From a virus, in the IMG/VR virus record IMGVR_UViG_3300031418_000040: a DNA stretch of 41,169 nt; one strand, given 5' to 3'. The notes below the pieces were generated by a model. It was not told the DNA's origin and did not search any database. It worked only from the letters and a program-made list of their open reading frames with translations. Shown piece after piece: positions 1 through 41,169 of this stretch. The translations under genes and the position numbers were made by a program. Numbering within the stretch: the first letter of the stretch is position 1; each line of letters opens with the position of its first letter.

Positions 1-112
1 CGCCTTTCAGGGGCGGTTACGACATTGCTTACAGCTTGTTTTTATTCGTTTTAATCGGTAGTTCGAAGATGGTGCCCGGGGTGGGACTTGAACCCACACA
101 GCCATAAGCCGA
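1..112. repeat. attL-side copy of a perfect direct repeat of at least 112 bp bracketing the prophage (partner 41058..41169)
   Basis: Bases 1..112 read identically to 41058..41169. Both copies are cut by the window edges, so the true repeat is probably longer. It contains the tRNA 3' half plus 69 bp of downstream flank. Confidence 0.9.
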
Positions 113-267: not shown

Positions 268-591
268 TCATATTGTTGGCCTGTTCCAGTCATAGTGAGC
301 AGTTATAGTTAATACCACCGTTCCGAGCACTATTACTTCTTCCATAATTTGACCTTCCAGTACCTCACCGTCCGGCGTGATGATCGACTTACCCATCAGT
401 TTTCCGATGCCTACCTCACCAAATATTTCATAGTAAATTTCTGATCCATTGGCAGGTGTCATGGATGAGTCAACGACATACTGAAGCCCACCAAAATCAA
501 CGAGCGACGTTGATGATGGGCGCGGGATGAACAGGCGGTTCAGGCAGATGCCGTCTTCGATGTAGTCCGTGGCCGGGGATGGAAAGCCCAT
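268..591 (-). CDS. UmuD'-like (HumD-like) S24-fold protein that starts at the position of the UmuD cleavage site and lacks the GDSM catalytic segment
   Basis: The N-terminus MGFPSPATDYIE..LN matches E. coli UmuD from Gly25 (C/GFPSPAADYVEQRIDLN). VVDSSMTPANGSEIYYEIFGEVGIGKL aligns with [27 protein letters not shown]. The ASGDSMIDGGISDGD segment is replaced by a short FGGLQY. The ATG overlaps the upstream stop (TGATG). Confidence 0.75.
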   Translation of the reverse strand: MGFPSPATDYIEDGICLNRLFIPRPSSTSLVDFGGLQYVVDSSMTPANGSEIYYEIFGEVGIGKLMGKSIITPDGEVLEGQIMEEVIVLGTVVLTITAHYDWNRPTI

Positions 592-833
592 CAGAAACCT
601 CCGTTGTTCGGATTGAACAGCAGGAACGTCCGGCGCTCGCCTTCCTCTGTAGACACGTCTTTGAATGTGCTCTGATAGTGCTCAATCCAGCGATTGGCCT
701 CAGCAAGAGACCAATCGTAGTTGACCTGTGCCAGTGCTGCGACAAAGTCAGATGTGGTCACTGTGCGCCGCCCGCTGGCAGCAATCTGTATGCTCGCCCG
801 GAACGCCGCCGGGATGTCGTCTCTTCTTCCCAT
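591..833 (-). CDS. Hypothetical 80-aa protein, first gene of the SOS-boxed operon
   Basis: ATG-initiated ORF with AAGG 6 nt upstream. It is translationally coupled to the UmuD'-like gene. A LexA box lies 12 nt upstream. I recognise no family. Confidence 0.6.
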   Translation of the reverse strand: MGRRDDIPAAFRASIQIAASGRRTVTTSDFVAALAQVNYDWSLAEANRWIEHYQSTFKDVSTEEGERRTFLLFNPNNGGF

Positions 834-844
834 GATTACCTTGA

Positions 845-864
845 TACTGTTTGGATATACAGTA
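845..864. promoter_or_regulatory. LexA (SOS) box TACTGTTTGGATATACAGTA
   Basis: Fits CTGT-N8-ACAG with flanking TA..TA. It sits directly downstream of a candidate promoter on the minus strand (TTGATC-N18-AATAAT) and 12 nt upstream of the ATG at 833. Confidence 0.8.
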
Positions 865-981
865 TTATTTGATCATGTGGCGTGAATGATCAACCGGGTG
901 AGTCGGGGAAAATTGTCAGGATGATGATCTTGAGGGGAATTTAGCTGGCTTATTCTTTCCATGAACTTATGAATTTCGCTT

Positions 982-25282: not shown

Positions 25283-26371
25283 ATGATGTCAGGAATCAAT
25301 TTTTCTTTTGAAGGCTTGACTATACAAAGAATCATTGCTCATAGGATTTTTCCTCGTGCTAATGATAAAACTATGACTCCTGCCAAACTCAGTCAGCAGC
25401 TGTTGGCATTTGATCAAGATGCGCTTGACGTATTGCAAATGAGGATTACTGAAGCCTTAGCTGCAAAATCTCATGGGATTGAGATGTCAATCAATGCAAC
25501 AGTGGCTGATAGTTTTTTGAATCTTTCCGCTTCTACGATGCATTCAGACGATGCTACGTTCATCCAAGTAAGTAAAAGATTTGCAAACAAACTTACCGAA
25601 GCTCAGCAAGGGAGCGGTGCGCCTGGTGGTATTCTAACGGTAATGTCTGGATCAGTAGGTGAAGGCCAACTCCCATTCGTATGTGTTATAAAAGCAGAAA
25701 CTCAATCAGGATTTAGAACGACAGAGAATGCTATACAGCTTTCCATGGAATACATTTCAGAGTTACTACTTACTCCAACGCAAAAATTTTATAAAGTTGG
25801 TTTCGTTATTGAAAAATCCCTCACACAAGCAGATGGTGCAGGGAATTATAACCCTGAGCTATTCCGAGCATTCCTTTTTGACCATTTAATGTCTTCAACT
25901 GATACAAAGAAAGCAGCAGCTTACTTCTACAATAAGTTTCTAGGCATGGATATAAATAAGTCATCAAAAAAACTCACTCAGGATTTTTATGAAAATACTT
26001 GTTTATTTATAAACAATTCAGGCATCACTGAGGAGAAAAAACTAGATTTACATGAAGCTTTAAGGTCAGAGCTTAGGTCAAACAAAGCAACAATCAACAT
26101 AACGACATTTGCCAGCGAAAGCATACCCGAAGACATTCGGGAAAGTTATACAAGCATGATGGCTTCTAAGCAACTCCCCACCATATCTTTCAATAAAGAC
26201 ATTGAATTTATTTCCAGCAAGCTAAAAAGAAGAAATAAATTAGTGTTCACAAATGACATATGGATATCAGTTCCTCCAGATGAACTAAAAACGTTGGTTG
26301 AAATACTTCCAAATACTGAAAATGATAGTACAATATTAAAGATAAATGGTAAGCTTTCGAGGCAAGAGTGA
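25283..26371 (+). CDS. NdpA/YejK-like (NA37 nucleoid-associated protein family) protein
   Basis: 362 aa. IQRIIAHRI near the N-terminus, F..VSKRFANKLTEAQQGSGAPGGILTV and YFYNKFLGMD parallel YejK features (IALHQLI, FSRAATGRLRDEL...GGIVLF, FMDFLGA). AT-rich. The stop overlaps the next start (ATGA). Confidence 0.6.
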   Translation: MMSGINFSFEGLTIQRIIAHRIFPRANDKTMTPAKLSQQLLAFDQDALDVLQMRITEALAAKSHGIEMSINATVADSFLNLSASTMHSDDATFIQVSKRFANKLTEAQQGSGAPGGILTVMSGSVGEGQLPFVCVIKAETQSGFRTTENAIQLSMEYISELLLTPTQKFYKVGFVIEKSLTQADGAGNYNPELFRAFLFDHLMSSTDTKKAAAYFYNKFLGMDINKSSKKLTQDFYENTCLFINNSGITEEKKLDLHEALRSELRSNKATINITTFASESIPEDIRESYTSMMASKQLPTISFNKDIEFISSKLKRRNKLVFTNDIWISVPPDELKTLVEILPNTENDSTILKINGKLSRQE

Positions 26372-27363
26372 TGGAACTTAATGAATTTCACAGGTATTTA
26401 TTAGATAACCACCCTATGCATGCAGCATGGGGTGATGTTGTTTCCTCTGAAATTCAAAAGGCTGTTATGGCAGCAACCGATAGAAAACATCTTAAGGGAT
26501 TTCTGAAAGTTCCTGTTGAACCACGAGTTAAAGATATAAAGTCTGCGATTGGAAAAGTTGCCAGGAAAGGTTACGAAAACCCTGTAATACAGATGACAGA
26601 TTTAGTAGGGACACGATTCGTTGTACTTCTATCTTCTGATATTGATATTGTTTGTAGTGCTTTAGAATCAATATCAGAATTTTCTTCAGTTGTTTCAAAA
26701 GACTATCTATCTGACATCGAAACAAACCCTAAGATATTTGATTATCAATCTAAGCATTACGAAGTAAGACCTAAAGAAGAATTTACTGTTAACAACATTA
26801 CCATAACAACAGAAGCCTGCTGTGAGGTGCAAATTAGGACATTGTTACAGCATGCTTATGCAGAGCTAGTACATGATAACATTTACAAGCCTGTTGGTGT
26901 GGTTCCTAAAGCAGCTGAACGGCATATCGCCCGCAGTATGGCGCTCATGGAAACCACAGATGACCTTTTTTGCTCAACAATGGAATTACTTTACGAAACA
27001 AATAAAGGAAGAAATGAGTTCTTATTTTCATTAGTGGAATTGTACAAAGCTTGCATTGGTGAAGAACATGTTCATTTGGATGATGCAACAAACTTTCACA
27101 TCCTAGATGAATACAAGAACTTCATTAATGAGGAAACTTTCAATAAAGTGGAAGAGCTAATCAAAAAAAAGAAATTTTTACCATCAAGAATTCGCAATCG
27201 CTCTTCGGAAAACTCTCTTTTCGGACAACCATCAGTATTGTTTTTATATCACCTAGTAAGCACATTAGATAGCGACCAAATCACTAAGCTTTGGCCGCTC
27301 CCTGGATACTTAAAAGACCTTAACTTAGTATTCAGTGATCTAGGTGTAAATACCAGCCTATAA
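26368..27363 (+). CDS. RelA/SpoT-domain nucleotide pyrophosphokinase (small alarmone synthetase / toxSAS-like) with a ~130-aa helical C-terminal extension
   Basis: RSH synthetase motifs appear in order: RVKDIKSAIGKVARKG, DLVGTRFVV, DYQSKHYEV, EVQIRTLLQHAYAELVHDNIYK. Confidence 0.85.
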   Translation: MMELNEFHRYLLDNHPMHAAWGDVVSSEIQKAVMAATDRKHLKGFLKVPVEPRVKDIKSAIGKVARKGYENPVIQMTDLVGTRFVVLLSSDIDIVCSALESISEFSSVVSKDYLSDIETNPKIFDYQSKHYEVRPKEEFTVNNITITTEACCEVQIRTLLQHAYAELVHDNIYKPVGVVPKAAERHIARSMALMETTDDLFCSTMELLYETNKGRNEFLFSLVELYKACIGEEHVHLDDATNFHILDEYKNFINEETFNKVEELIKKKKFLPSRIRNRSSENSLFGQPSVLFLYHLVSTLDSDQITKLWPLPGYLKDLNLVFSDLGVNTSL

Positions 27364-34781: not shown

Positions 34782-34817
34782 TCTTTTGTTTATTCCTGCG
34801 TGTAAACAAAAGGTTTA
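34755..34817. promoter_or_regulatory. OR-like operator cluster with 15-bp palindromes TAAAC-N5-GTTTA
   Basis: TAAACAATGAGTTTA (34755..34769) and TAAACAAAAGGTTTA (34803..34817) are perfect. A degenerate site TCAATCTTTTGTTTA lies at 34778..34792. Centres are about 24 bp apart. Confidence 0.7.
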
Positions 34818-34827
34818 TCATTTAGGG

Positions 34828-35493
34828 ATGAAAACTAACGTGGAAACAGAAATGACTAAGCTCACTCGCCCTGAGGAGCTTCTCAAGGCAGCCAATGTCA
34901 CTAAAGCTGGATTGGCACGCATGGCTGAAGTCAGCCCACAGGCAGTTAATAACTGGTTTAAGCGTGGAGAGATCGGCAAGGAATCAGCCATAAAAATTGC
35001 TGCTGCAACGGGTTTAAGCTTGTCATGGGTGCTAGGTGAGGATAAAGAATCCGACAACATTGAACTCGTTGGCGGCGTCAAGGATGGGGTCATACCTGTA
35101 ATTGGCGACGCAGTACTGGGTATGGACGGCTTAATTGATATGATGGAGTTTCACGCCGGTTGGCTACAAATCTACAGCAATGACAGCCGGGCCTATGGCG
35201 TTCGAGTCCGTGGGGATAGCATGTGGCCACGGATTCAGTCAGGAGAATTTGTATTAATCGAGCCAAATACAAAAGTCCACCCCGGAGATGAAGTATTCAT
35301 TCGAACTGCTGATGGGCATAACATGATAAAAATACTGAACTTTACACGTGAAGGAGACTATCAGTTCACGAGCATCAATAACGATCACAAGCCAATAACC
35401 ATGGCACCAGCTAACGTAGTAAAAATTCATTTTGTATCTGGAATCATCAAAGCCACACGCTTCATATCAGCTGAAGACGTATCTAAAGAGTAA
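34828..35493 (+). CDS. cI: CI-type repressor (N-terminal HTH plus C-terminal S24 LexA-like peptidase domain)
   Basis: HTH TKAGLARMAEVSPQAVNNW. The S24 motifs are VRGDSMWPRI (Ser) and MIKIL (Lys). First ATG at 34828. Confidence 0.9.
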   Translation: MKTNVETEMTKLTRPEELLKAANVTKAGLARMAEVSPQAVNNWFKRGEIGKESAIKIAAATGLSLSWVLGEDKESDNIELVGGVKDGVIPVIGDAVLGMDGLIDMMEFHAGWLQIYSNDSRAYGVRVRGDSMWPRIQSGEFVLIEPNTKVHPGDEVFIRTADGHNMIKILNFTREGDYQFTSINNDHKPITMAPANVVKIHFVSGIIKATRFISAEDVSKE

Positions 35494-41049: not shown

Positions 41050-41073
41050 AAAAAAACCGCCTTTCAGGGGCGG
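41050..41073 (-). terminator. Rho-independent terminator downstream of the tRNA-Leu gene (minus strand)
   Basis: The minus strand reads CCGCCcctgaaaGGCGG followed by TTTTTTT. The hairpin part is duplicated at 1..16. Confidence 0.6.
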
Positions 41074-41169
41074 TTACGACATTGCTTACAGCTTGTTTTT
41101 ATTCGTTTTAATCGGTAGTTCGAAGATGGTGCCCGGGGTGGGACTTGAACCCACACAGCCATAAGCCGA
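41058..41169. repeat. attR-side copy of the direct repeat
   Basis: Identical to 1..112 and truncated by the window end. Confidence 0.9.
41127..41169 (-). tRNA. 3' part of tRNA-Leu(UAA); the gene continues beyond the window and is presumably the intact copy
   Basis: Same sequence as 70..112 (CCA end, acceptor, T-arm, start of variable arm). Whether it is intact cannot be seen. Confidence 0.6.

What the first reader, a model, noticed from the sequence alone, without database searches (positions are those of the whole stretch)
268..864. LexA-boxed terminal operon encoding an unknown 80-aa protein and a pre-truncated, catalytically degenerate UmuD'-like protein
What the sequence shows:
- A near-ideal SOS box TACTGTTTGGATATACAGTA (845..864) lies 12 nt upstream of a two-gene, translationally coupled operon at the extreme attL end.
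- The second product begins MGFPSPATDY. This is exactly where RecA-stimulated cleavage of UmuD (Cys24/Gly25) creates UmuD'.
- When I align it to UmuD from memory, the ASGDSM...DGD segment holding the nucleophilic Ser is deleted, while the following strands align well.

Established knowledge: phage P1 HumD is a precedent for a phage-encoded, already processed UmuD' analogue. No umuC-like polymerase gene is present in this prophage.

Inference: the pair could modulate host Pol V, RecA* or LexA-family proteins during SOS, or act in induction or anti-defence. The 80-aa partner has no family that I recognise.
Basis: partly seen in the sequence, partly recalled or inferred. Interest (0 to 1): 0.62.

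Follow-up and report, generated by a model that had tools for sequence, protein, structure and literature searches.

The report
SOS-controlled phage UmuD'-mimic gene pair
The last two genes of this Erwinia-type prophage are a DNA-damage-switched pair: a small winged-helix-like protein and a ready-cut, protease-dead copy of the mutagenesis factor UmuD'. The pair is common on enterobacterial phages and IncX3 plasmids, and I found no paper that tests its function.

Summary

**What is there**
- A unique, perfect LexA box (845..864) abuts a sigma-70-like -10 hexamer.
- Eleven bases downstream begins a translationally coupled pair on the minus strand: A (833..591, 80 aa) and B (591..268, 107 aa).
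- B starts at the residue equivalent to UmuD Gly25 and folds like UmuD' (TM 0.71-0.74).
- B lacks an 11-residue segment that includes the Ser60 nucleophile, and has Gly at the Lys97 position.
- The prophage has no umuC.

**How common it is**
- In 80 viral contigs carrying A, a LexA box lies 10-27 nt upstream in 80/80, and B follows directly in 75/80.
- The pair also sits on IncX3 plasmids.
- The short B form is one well-supported clade of at least 84 distinct sequences.
- Both genes are under strong purifying selection (dN/dS 0.02-0.14).
- A has PHROG 3893 as its only family, with no known function. It is neither DinI-, Tum- nor LexA-like.

**Reading**
- B is most likely an SOS-induced, non-catalytic UmuD' analogue of the P1 HumD / N15 gp26 lineage that acts on host UmuC or RecA*.
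- Whether it activates or blocks is untested.
- This scan reported the same cassette at least eight times on other genomes.

It is a real but moderately novel feature.

The parts
888..893 (-). -35-like hexamer TTGATC
   Evidence: Consensus scan. A TTGATC at a similar distance from the box recurs in Midgardsormr38, phiES15 and HK225.
864..869 (-). -10-like hexamer AATAAT. Its last base is the first base of the LexA box.
   Evidence: Consensus scan: 18-nt spacer, 9 of 12 matches.
845..864 (.). LexA (SOS) box. Minus strand reads TACTGTATATCCAAACAGTA.
   Evidence: Unique in the window, with 0.03 expected by chance. It is the only invariant block in the upstream regions of 7 phage and plasmid homologues. 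A box lies 10-27 nt upstream of gene A in 80/80 viral loci.
839..842 (-). Shine-Dalgarno-like AAGG for gene A
   Evidence: Read directly from the sequence.
591..833 (-). Gene A: an 80-aa acidic (pI 5.7) protein with a winged-helix-like predicted fold and unknown function
   Evidence: PHROG 3893, E 4e-31. No Pfam, NCBIfam, PADLOC or PDB sequence match. AF2 pLDDT 84.6. dN/dS 0.02-0.08.
598..602 (-). GGAGG ribosome-binding site for gene B, inside the 3' end of gene A
   Evidence: Read directly from the sequence. A's TGA and B's ATG overlap at base 591.
268..591 (-). Gene B: a 107-aa pre-truncated, Ser-less UmuD'-like protein (short form)
   Evidence: PHROG 3469 full-length match, E 1.4e-19. UmuD/UmuD' PDB chains at E about 1e-7. 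AF2 pLDDT 83.2. Foldseek 1ay9/1umu TM 0.71-0.74. dN/dS 0.05-0.14.
1..112 (.). att direct repeat (context only). The same roughly 105-112 bases recur at the right end of the window.

Best explanation
This is an SOS-induced accessory cassette (a moron) of temperate phages and plasmids of Enterobacterales.

**Shown**
- In the lysogen, LexA would sit on a box that abuts the -10 hexamer and covers the likely transcription start.
- The two genes overlap by one base (ATGA), with B's GGAGG site inside A's 3' end, which fits coupled translation.
- B keeps the beta-barrel body of UmuD' and the invariant N-terminal arm GFPSPAxDY.
- B has no N-terminal pro-peptide, no Ser nucleophile and no Lys general base. 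It cannot be, and need not be, processed.

**Inferred**
- After DNA damage LexA is cleaved and the pair is transcribed.
- B acts purely by binding, as a ready-made UmuD' analogue.
- Its most likely partners are host UmuC and RecA*.
- This would give the induced, damaged prophage translesion synthesis without waiting for the late, RecA*-dependent UmuD to UmuD' step. That is the role shown for phage P1 HumD.
- A is a highly conserved, non-basic winged-helix-like protein. It probably binds a conserved host protein in the same pathway rather than DNA.

**Odds**
- About 0.75 that B is a binding-only UmuD' mimic acting on the RecA*/Pol V axis.
- About 0.45 that its net effect is to supply UmuD' function to host UmuC.
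For: **SOS control**
- The box is unique and perfect in the window and abuts a promoter-like -10.
- A box lies 10-27 nt upstream of gene A in 80/80 viral loci.
- It is the only invariant block in otherwise diverged upstream regions of 7 phages and plasmids.

**UmuD' relationship**
- Sequence.
- Fold.

**N-terminal arm**
- G25, F26, S28, A30 and D32 are invariant in 109 distinct pre-truncated sequences.
- The same motif is kept in Bacteroidota pre-truncated forms that retain GDSM. Those are followed directly by a 417-420-aa umuC in 13 of 15 loci.
- F26 and P29 are RecA-contact residues in the RecA*-UmuD structure (PMC9926225).

**Selection**
- The short form is one clade with 100/97 support.
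- dN/dS is 0.05-0.14 for B and 0.02-0.08 for A.

**A partner polymerase is available**
- 26 of 27 carrier genomes encode a UmuC-type (DUF4113) ORF elsewhere.
- One viral locus has A followed directly by a degraded umuC (L075).

**Timing rationale**
- UmuD cleavage is a late SOS step (PMC9926225 abstract).

**From memory, not checked here**
- Engineered UmuD' carrying S60A still supports mutagenesis (Nohmi et al. 1988). Loss of the dyad in a pre-cut protein is therefore expected.
- Weigle reactivation of UV-damaged phage needs umuDC.
- HumD complements UmuD' (McLenigan et al. 1999). I saw only the title, and the paper is not held.
Against: - There are no experimental data for this family. I found no paper on it.
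- B scores 33 bits against the HumD equivalog model, whose cut-off is 120.
- B has lost 11 residues of the UmuD' body.
- The hydrophobic-pocket residues that receive RecA F203 (Y52, F94) and the acidic residue D91 are not conserved.
- None of the 37 non-Bacteroidota loci has umuC next to B.
- The conserved partner A has no counterpart in any characterised Pol V operon.
- The UmuC co-occurrence test is weak, because I believe umuDC is common in Enterobacterales regardless of the cassette; I measured no background frequency.
- A and B each occur alone under a LexA box: N15, HK225 and Pantoea plasmids. They are therefore not obligate partners.
Confidence: 0.45

Rival explanations
1. Decoy or dominant-negative. 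B binds the RecA* groove as an uncleavable pseudo-substrate, or forms heterodimers with host UmuD/UmuD'. Either would damp UmuD, LexA or CI cleavage or Pol V assembly. The mobile element would then restrain SOS mutagenesis or tune its own induction, in the manner of DinI or PsiB.
For: - The most conserved part of B is the cleavage-site-region remnant (F26, P29), which contacts RecA in the RecA*-UmuD structure.
- B is very acidic (pI 4.2), which would complement the basic patch of the RecA groove.
- The cassette sits beside divergent dinI homologues in HK225 and Eeyore.
- umuC is never linked in Enterobacterales.
- The body has diverged well beyond HumD.
Against: - The residues of the pocket for RecA L2 F203 (Y52, F94) and D91 are not conserved.
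- F18 of the N-terminal arm, part of that pocket, is absent by construction.
- The same N-terminal motif is equally conserved in Bacteroidota forms that are linked to umuC, so it does not by itself point to a decoy role.
- The window's own CI has an S24 domain. Blocking RecA* would then hinder the phage's own induction.
Confidence: 0.25
2. The key product is A. On this reading A is an SOS-controlled regulator or antirepressor, analogous in logic to 186 Tum or Gifsy GfoA, that inactivates a repressor or another DNA-binding protein. B would be a secondary passenger.
For: - A is more conserved than B.
- A occurs alone under a LexA box in HK225 and Pantoea plasmids.
- In Serratia P2-like prophages it sits after replication gene A, in the slot where phage 186 has its LexA-controlled tum.
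- Small LexA-controlled antirepressors next to dinI are known (PMC3121763).
- The predicted topology is winged-helix-like.
Against: - hhalign probability against Tum is 0.03-0.07%.
- A is 56% identical between Erwinia phages and IncX3 plasmids. By general expectation antirepressors track their cognate repressors, so a conserved host target fits this better.
- The window's CI has its own S24 domain, so the phage should not need an antirepressor.
- A's pI of 5.7 and its conserved acidic wing (STEEGE) are not DNA-binding-like.
Confidence: 0.08
3. The function is unrelated to mutagenesis or the SOS machinery, for example anti-defence or superinfection exclusion. The LexA box would serve only as a timing signal for induction.
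For: - The cassette lies in the moron region between the tail fibre and att. Cor-type exclusion genes lie in that region in Midgardsormr38, N15 and HK225.
- Distant A homologues in Yersinia prophages lie among early genes with Lar and methylases.
Against: - Neither protein matches any PADLOC model.
- B's only detectable relatives are UmuD/LexA-family proteins.
- Polymerase-related genes recur as neighbours of A: B, a umuC remnant and a theta-like gene.
Confidence: 0.1
4. A decaying, functionless remnant of a mobile umuDC-type operon.
For: - The catalytic residues and umuC are gone.
- Occasional pseudogenised copies exist (L016, L047, L075).
Against: - dN/dS is 0.02-0.14 over saturated synonymous distances.
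- B's length is fixed at 103-110 aa in 84 distinct sequences forming one deep clade.
- The box and the gene junction are conserved in 75-80 of 80 loci.
Confidence: 0.03

Closest known systems
Phage P1 HumD (NCBIfam NF051876, PHROG 811) and N15 gp26
   Same: Both are phage-encoded UmuD' analogues made without the N-terminal pro-peptide. They start MGFPSPA... and have no adjacent umuC. N15 gene 26 also has a LexA box about 14 nt upstream and lacks the Ser nucleophile.
   Different: - B is about 20 residues shorter: an 11-residue deletion of the Ser60 region plus a different C-terminus.
- It forms a separate clade and a separate PHROG (3469 rather than 811).
- It scores 33 bits against the HumD model, whose cut-off is 120.
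- It is usually preceded by gene A, which N15 lacks.
E. coli UmuD/UmuD' (Pol V accessory subunit; PDB 1UMU, 1AY9, 8GMT)
   Same: The fold matches (TM 0.71-0.74), and the N-terminal arm motif GFPSPAxDY is the same. LexA control is shared (E. coli umuDC's LexA control is from general knowledge).
   Different: There is no pro-peptide, no cleavage site, no Ser60 and no Lys97. B is not encoded with umuC. It falls below the Pfam S24 threshold.
impCAB-type plasmid operons (small ImpC protein, then a UmuD-like and a UmuC-like gene)
   Same: The layout is similar: an SOS-controlled operon in which a protein of about 80 aa precedes the UmuD-like gene. The layout of impCAB is recalled from memory.
   Different: A is not DinI/ImpC-like: no Pfam hit and hhalign probability 0.09% against a DinI homologue. 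There is no UmuC-like third gene.
LexA-controlled phage SOS modules: 186 tum, Gifsy dinI-gfoA-irsA
   Same: These are small genes under a LexA box outside the immunity region, often beside dinI (PMC3121763).
   Different: There is no sequence relationship between A and Tum. This prophage has a self-cleaving-type CI.

Membership tests
Peptidase S24 / LexA-UmuD family (Pfam PF00717) | Family profile match above the curated threshold | tested here: not met
   No Pfam hit at E<=1.
Peptidase S24 / LexA-UmuD family (Pfam PF00717) | LexA/UmuD C-terminal beta-barrel fold | tested here: met
   AF2 model at pLDDT 83.2. Foldseek gives UmuD' at TM 0.71-0.74 and probability 1.00, followed by LexA and CI C-terminal domains.
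Peptidase S24 / LexA-UmuD family (Pfam PF00717) | Ser nucleophile (UmuD S60) in a G-x-S-M context | tested here: not met
   An 11-column gap covers UmuD 57-67 in all 84 short forms. The Ser28 that HMMER aligns there is not conserved.
Peptidase S24 / LexA-UmuD family (Pfam PF00717) | Lys general base (UmuD K97) | tested here: not met
   Among the short forms this position is G or A in nearly all, and G63 in the window. The adjacent K/R aligns with K98. A one-residue alignment shift cannot be excluded.
Peptidase S24 / LexA-UmuD family (Pfam PF00717) | Ala/Cys-Gly self-cleavage site preceded by an N-terminal segment | tested here: not met
   The protein starts at the Gly. The in-frame sequence upstream is the out-of-frame 3' end of gene A, and longer database ORFs are frameshift read-throughs.
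HumD family (NCBIfam NF051876, equivalog) | Score at or above the curated cut-off (120 bits) | tested here: not met
   33 bits, covering residues 1-62 only.
HumD family (NCBIfam NF051876, equivalog) | Natively pre-truncated UmuD' analogue on a phage | tested here: met
HumD family (NCBIfam NF051876, equivalog) | Supports UmuC-dependent SOS mutagenesis | not testable with these tools
   Needs a complementation assay.
PHROG 3469 ('UmuD-like protein', 106 positions) | Full-length profile match | tested here: met
   E 1.4e-19, residues 1-105 against profile positions 1-104 of 106.
LexA (SOS) regulon member | Consensus CTG-N10-CAG box overlapping the promoter | tested here: met
LexA (SOS) regulon member | Box conserved in orthologous loci | tested here: met
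   80/80 viral loci, 7 phage and plasmid loci and genome loci.
LexA (SOS) regulon member | LexA binding and damage-induced transcription | not testable with these tools
Winged-helix DNA-binding proteins (for gene A) | H-S-H-H-S-W-S topology | tested here: met
   AF2 at pLDDT 84.6: H6-13, E15-17, E23-26, H27-36, H43-53, E57-59, E69-72.
Winged-helix DNA-binding proteins (for gene A) | Significant structural match to a solved winged-helix protein | tested here: inconclusive
   Most of the best PDB hits are winged-helix DNA-binding domains (FoxO, MarR, TubR). All are weak, with E>=0.07 and TM 0.36-0.50.
Winged-helix DNA-binding proteins (for gene A) | Basic DNA-contact surface | tested here: not met
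   pI 5.7. The conserved wing DVSTEEGE is acidic. Surface electrostatics were not computed.
DinI / ImpC family (PF06183) (for gene A) | Profile or profile-profile similarity | tested here: not met
   No Pfam hit. hhalign probability 0.09% against HK225 DinI.
186 Tum-type antirepressor (for gene A) | Sequence similarity to Tum | tested here: not met
   hhalign probability 0.03-0.07%. There is only a positional analogy in Serratia P2-like prophages.

The most novel reading that the evidence does not exclude
A and B together form a previously unrecognised SOS-triggered module that works by binding, not catalysis. B would be an uncleavable RecA*/UmuD-family decoy. A would be a new class of small polymerase- or RecA-associated factor. 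Its neighbours in different elements are a UmuD' mimic, a umuC remnant and a Pol III theta-like gene. Phages and epidemic IncX3 plasmids would use the module to retune host SOS timing, mutagenesis or induction.
Probability: 0.25. Interest if true: 0.65.

Novelty: new variant of a known kind. Interest (0 to 1): 0.42.

Why it matters
- If B supplies or blocks UmuD' function, temperate phages and the globally spread IncX3 carbapenemase plasmids carry a damage-switched lever on host error-prone DNA synthesis. That is relevant to how fast bacteria mutate under DNA-damaging antibiotics.
- The 80-aa partner is among the most conserved genes of unknown function in this phage region, and it is consistently mis-annotated as "DNA polymerase V".
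- A single set of laboratory-strain experiments would settle the function of a family present in more than a thousand sequenced plasmids and many prophages.

Tried and rejected
**Split LexA-like repressor (A as DNA-binding domain, B as C-terminal domain).**
- An HMM search of 1.84 billion representatives found almost only stand-alone proteins of about 79 aa.
- The longer 148-187-aa hits inspected are frameshift read-throughs.
- hhalign of A against LexA gives 0.08%.

**A as a DinI/ImpC homologue.** Rejected.

**A as a Tum homologue.** Rejected.

**Defence-system membership.** No PADLOC hit.

**Fold of A.**
- BFVD (viral structures): only its own family, HK225 gp28.
- PDB profile search: nothing below E 0.9.

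**Host UmuC.** I tested whether carrier genomes lack UmuC, which would have argued against the surrogate model. 26 of 27 have one, so the test did not discriminate.

**Host genome.** No genome is held for this window, so the host's own umuDC could not be checked.

**Literature.** The HumD paper, PMC94175, is not held. Searches found no functional study of the short family or of the IncX3 copy.

Full report
**1. What is in the sequence**

On the minus strand, ORF A runs 833..591 (80 aa) and ORF B runs 591..268 (107 aa). A's TGA stop and B's ATG share base 591. A GGAGG motif lies inside A's last codons, 6 nt before B's ATG.

The 20-mer at 845..864 reads TACTGTATATCCAAACAGTA on the coding strand. 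It matches TACTGT-N8-ACAGTA exactly and is unique in 41 kb, against 0.03 expected from shuffles. Every other CTG-N10-CAG site in the window has at least 8 mismatches to the LexA consensus.

A sigma-70-like promoter lies just upstream: TTGATC, an 18-nt spacer, then AATAAT. It ends on the first base of the box. Bound LexA would therefore cover the transcription start.

The window is a whole prophage bounded by a direct repeat of about 105-112 bp. The integrase is at the far end and a CI-type repressor with an S24 domain lies at 34786..35493. It contains no umuC.

**2. Protein B**

B matches PHROG 3469 ("UmuD-like") over its full length (E 1.4e-19) and PHROG 811 more weakly. It matches UmuD and UmuD' PDB chains at E about 1e-7.

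It falls below two curated thresholds. The NCBIfam HumD model gives 33 bits against a cut-off of 120. Pfam S24 gives nothing at E<=1.

B starts at the residue aligned with UmuD Gly25, the first residue of UmuD'. MAFFT alignments place an 11-residue gap over UmuD 57-67, which removes Ser60, and put Gly at Lys97. HMMER's pairwise alternative aligns B Ser28 with Ser60, but that Ser is not conserved in the family.

The AF2 model has pLDDT 83.2, with the first 20 residues at low confidence. Its best structural matches are UmuD' (1AY9 and 1UMU, TM 0.71-0.74), then UmuD on RecA (8GMT), then LexA and CI C-terminal domains.

**3. Protein A**

A has no Pfam, NCBIfam, PADLOC or PDB sequence match. Its only family is PHROG 3893, of unknown function. 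Databases widely call it "DNA polymerase V". I found nothing supporting that name; the Midgardsormr38 paper only notes that homologous entries carry it.

AF2 gives a confident model (pLDDT 84.6) with winged-helix topology. Foldseek hits are mostly winged-helix domains but all are weak, with E>=0.07. BFVD returns only its own family.

A is not basic (pI 5.7), and its most conserved loop is acidic (DVSTEEGE). hhalign rejects relationships to three candidates:
- DinI, 0.09%
- LexA, 0.08%
- 186 Tum, 0.03-0.07%

An exhaustive HMM search found 184 representative clusters, mostly stand-alone proteins of under about 100 aa (many about 79). The three A-plus-B-sized hits inspected are frameshift read-throughs.

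**4. The cassette elsewhere**

- *Nearest phage.* Erwinia phage Midgardsormr38 has the same pair between the tail fibre and the integrase.
- *Viral contigs.* In 80 IMG/VR loci carrying A, a LexA box with at most 5 mismatches lies 10-27 nt upstream in 80/80. B follows with a gap of -1 to +2 nt in 74 of 75 cases. Of these, 63 are short forms and 8 are long forms.
- *Upstream conservation.* Across seven diverged phages and plasmids, the box is the only invariant upstream block.
- *Plasmids.* A occurs in 1086 PLSDB records, by their size and identical match apparently mostly IncX3-type plasmids. In the IncX3 plasmid inspected, pKPC-NY79, A has a box upstream and precedes a long-form B cut by IS26.
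- *Single genes.* A or B can occur alone, still under a box. Examples are N15 gene 26, HK225 gp28 next to a divergent dinI, Pantoea plasmids, and Serratia P2-like prophages at the slot where 186 has tum.
- *No box.* In Yersinia prophages a distant A homologue lies in the early region, in one case directly after a Pol III theta-like gene, without a box.

**5. Comparative anatomy of pre-truncated UmuD' proteins**

A scan of 185,579 species genomes for proteins beginning MGFPSPA[TK]D gave 52 loci.

| Group | Loci | GDSM motif | umuC directly downstream | A upstream |
|---|---|---|---|---|
| Bacteroidota | 15 | kept in the 11 full-length (121-125 aa) forms | 13 of 15 | none |
| All other loci (nearly all Enterobacterales) | 37 | lost | none | 25 of 37 |

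In 109 distinct sequences G25, F26, S28, A30 and D32 are invariant. All 84 short forms share the same deletion. The short form is a single clade with 100/97 support and deep internal branches.

dN/dS against close relatives is 0.02-0.08 for A and 0.05-0.14 for B, at near-saturated dS. The loss of catalysis is therefore old, and the proteins are maintained for a non-catalytic role.

**6. Mechanism**

In the RecA*-UmuD cryo-EM structure, F26 and P29 of the cleavage-site region touch RecA. Y52, residue 54, F94 and F18 form the pocket for RecA F203, and D91 and E93 face a basic patch (PMC9926225).

B keeps F26, P29 and usually E93, but not Y52, F94 or D91. The invariant arm is shared with the umuC-linked Bacteroidota forms. 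It therefore fits a UmuD'-type role at least as well as a RecA decoy role.

26 of 27 carrier genomes have a UmuC-type gene elsewhere. This is consistent with the surrogate model but does not discriminate.

Two points are from memory. UmuD' function does not need Ser60. P1 HumD substitutes for UmuD'.

I therefore favour an SOS-induced UmuD' surrogate that bypasses the late UmuD-processing step (0.45). The main rival is a decoy or dominant-negative role (0.25).

A's extreme conservation across unrelated phages and plasmids points to a conserved host target. Its neighbours in different elements are all polymerase-related: B, a umuC remnant in L075, and a theta-like gene. This is a hint only.

**7. 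Novelty**

The lineage is known (HumD, N15 gp26), and the family is catalogued and annotated. I found no functional study of it. The Midgardsormr38 paper only notes the shared "DNA polymerase V subunit" hypothetical.

This scan has reported the same cassette at least eight times on other genomes, with matching conclusions. I rate it a new variant of a known kind, of moderate interest.

**8. Limits**

- No host genome is held for the window.
- No tool offers complex prediction.
- The HumD paper is not held.

Noticed in passing
window 1..112 and 41064..41169: The prophage is bounded by a direct repeat of about 105-112 bp. It contains a tRNA 3' half and a terminator-like hairpin. ARAGORN calls no tRNA because only part of the gene is present.
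   Followed up: partly
window 25283..27363 (+): A plus-strand gene pair sits inside an otherwise minus-strand block. One product matches the NA37 nucleoid-associated family (PF04245) and the other has a RelA_SpoT domain (PF04607). This could be a small-alarmone-synthetase toxin or defence-type moron.
   Followed up: no
L075 3001..4097 (IMG/VR contig 2791355160_000004): Here gene A is followed at the same TGATG junction by a degraded umuC rather than by B. The umuC starts MFALVDVNSF, then has a frameshift and an internal deletion, but its middle and C-terminus are recognisable. It is the only one of 87 loci with umuC next to the cassette.
   Followed up: partly
L123-L139 (Niastella, Longitalea and other Bacteroidota genomes): These loci encode natively pre-truncated UmuD' proteins (MGFPSPAKDY...). 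Most keep the GDSM nucleophile motif and are followed directly by a 417-420-aa umuC. They appear to be pre-cut Pol V operons.
   Followed up: partly
L144 3964..4243 (Serratia P2-like prophage): A distant homologue of A stands alone behind a TTGACA promoter and a LexA box (TACTGTAATTATATACAGTG, 17 nt before the ATG). It lies just after replication gene A, in the slot where phage 186 carries its LexA-controlled tum.
   Followed up: partly
L146 3767..4231 (Yersinia frederiksenii prophage): A distant homologue of A directly follows a gene for a DNA Pol III theta-like protein (PF06440). The pair lies in an early operon with Lar and methylase genes, and no LexA box is present.
   Followed up: no
L087 3461..4099 (IncX3 plasmid pKPC-NY79): The IncX3 backbone carries a LexA box, gene A and a long-form B. 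B's 3' end is cut by IS26. This is presumably the 'umuD' that IncX3 papers mention, though I did not read those papers.
   Followed up: partly
Database annotation of relatives: A is propagated as 'DNA polymerase V', and B as 'repressor protein CI' or 'phage repressor protein'. Several longer database ORFs (P0017, P0151, P0204, P0231) are frameshift read-throughs from A's alternative frame into B.
   Followed up: yes
L003 and L004 (phages Eeyore and HK225): A dinI homologue lies divergently next to the cassette, with one strong LexA box (TACTGTATAT..ATACAGTC) between them. HK225 has A but no B. In Eeyore, B's annotated start is too far downstream; the real start is MGFPSPAMDY.
   Followed up: partly
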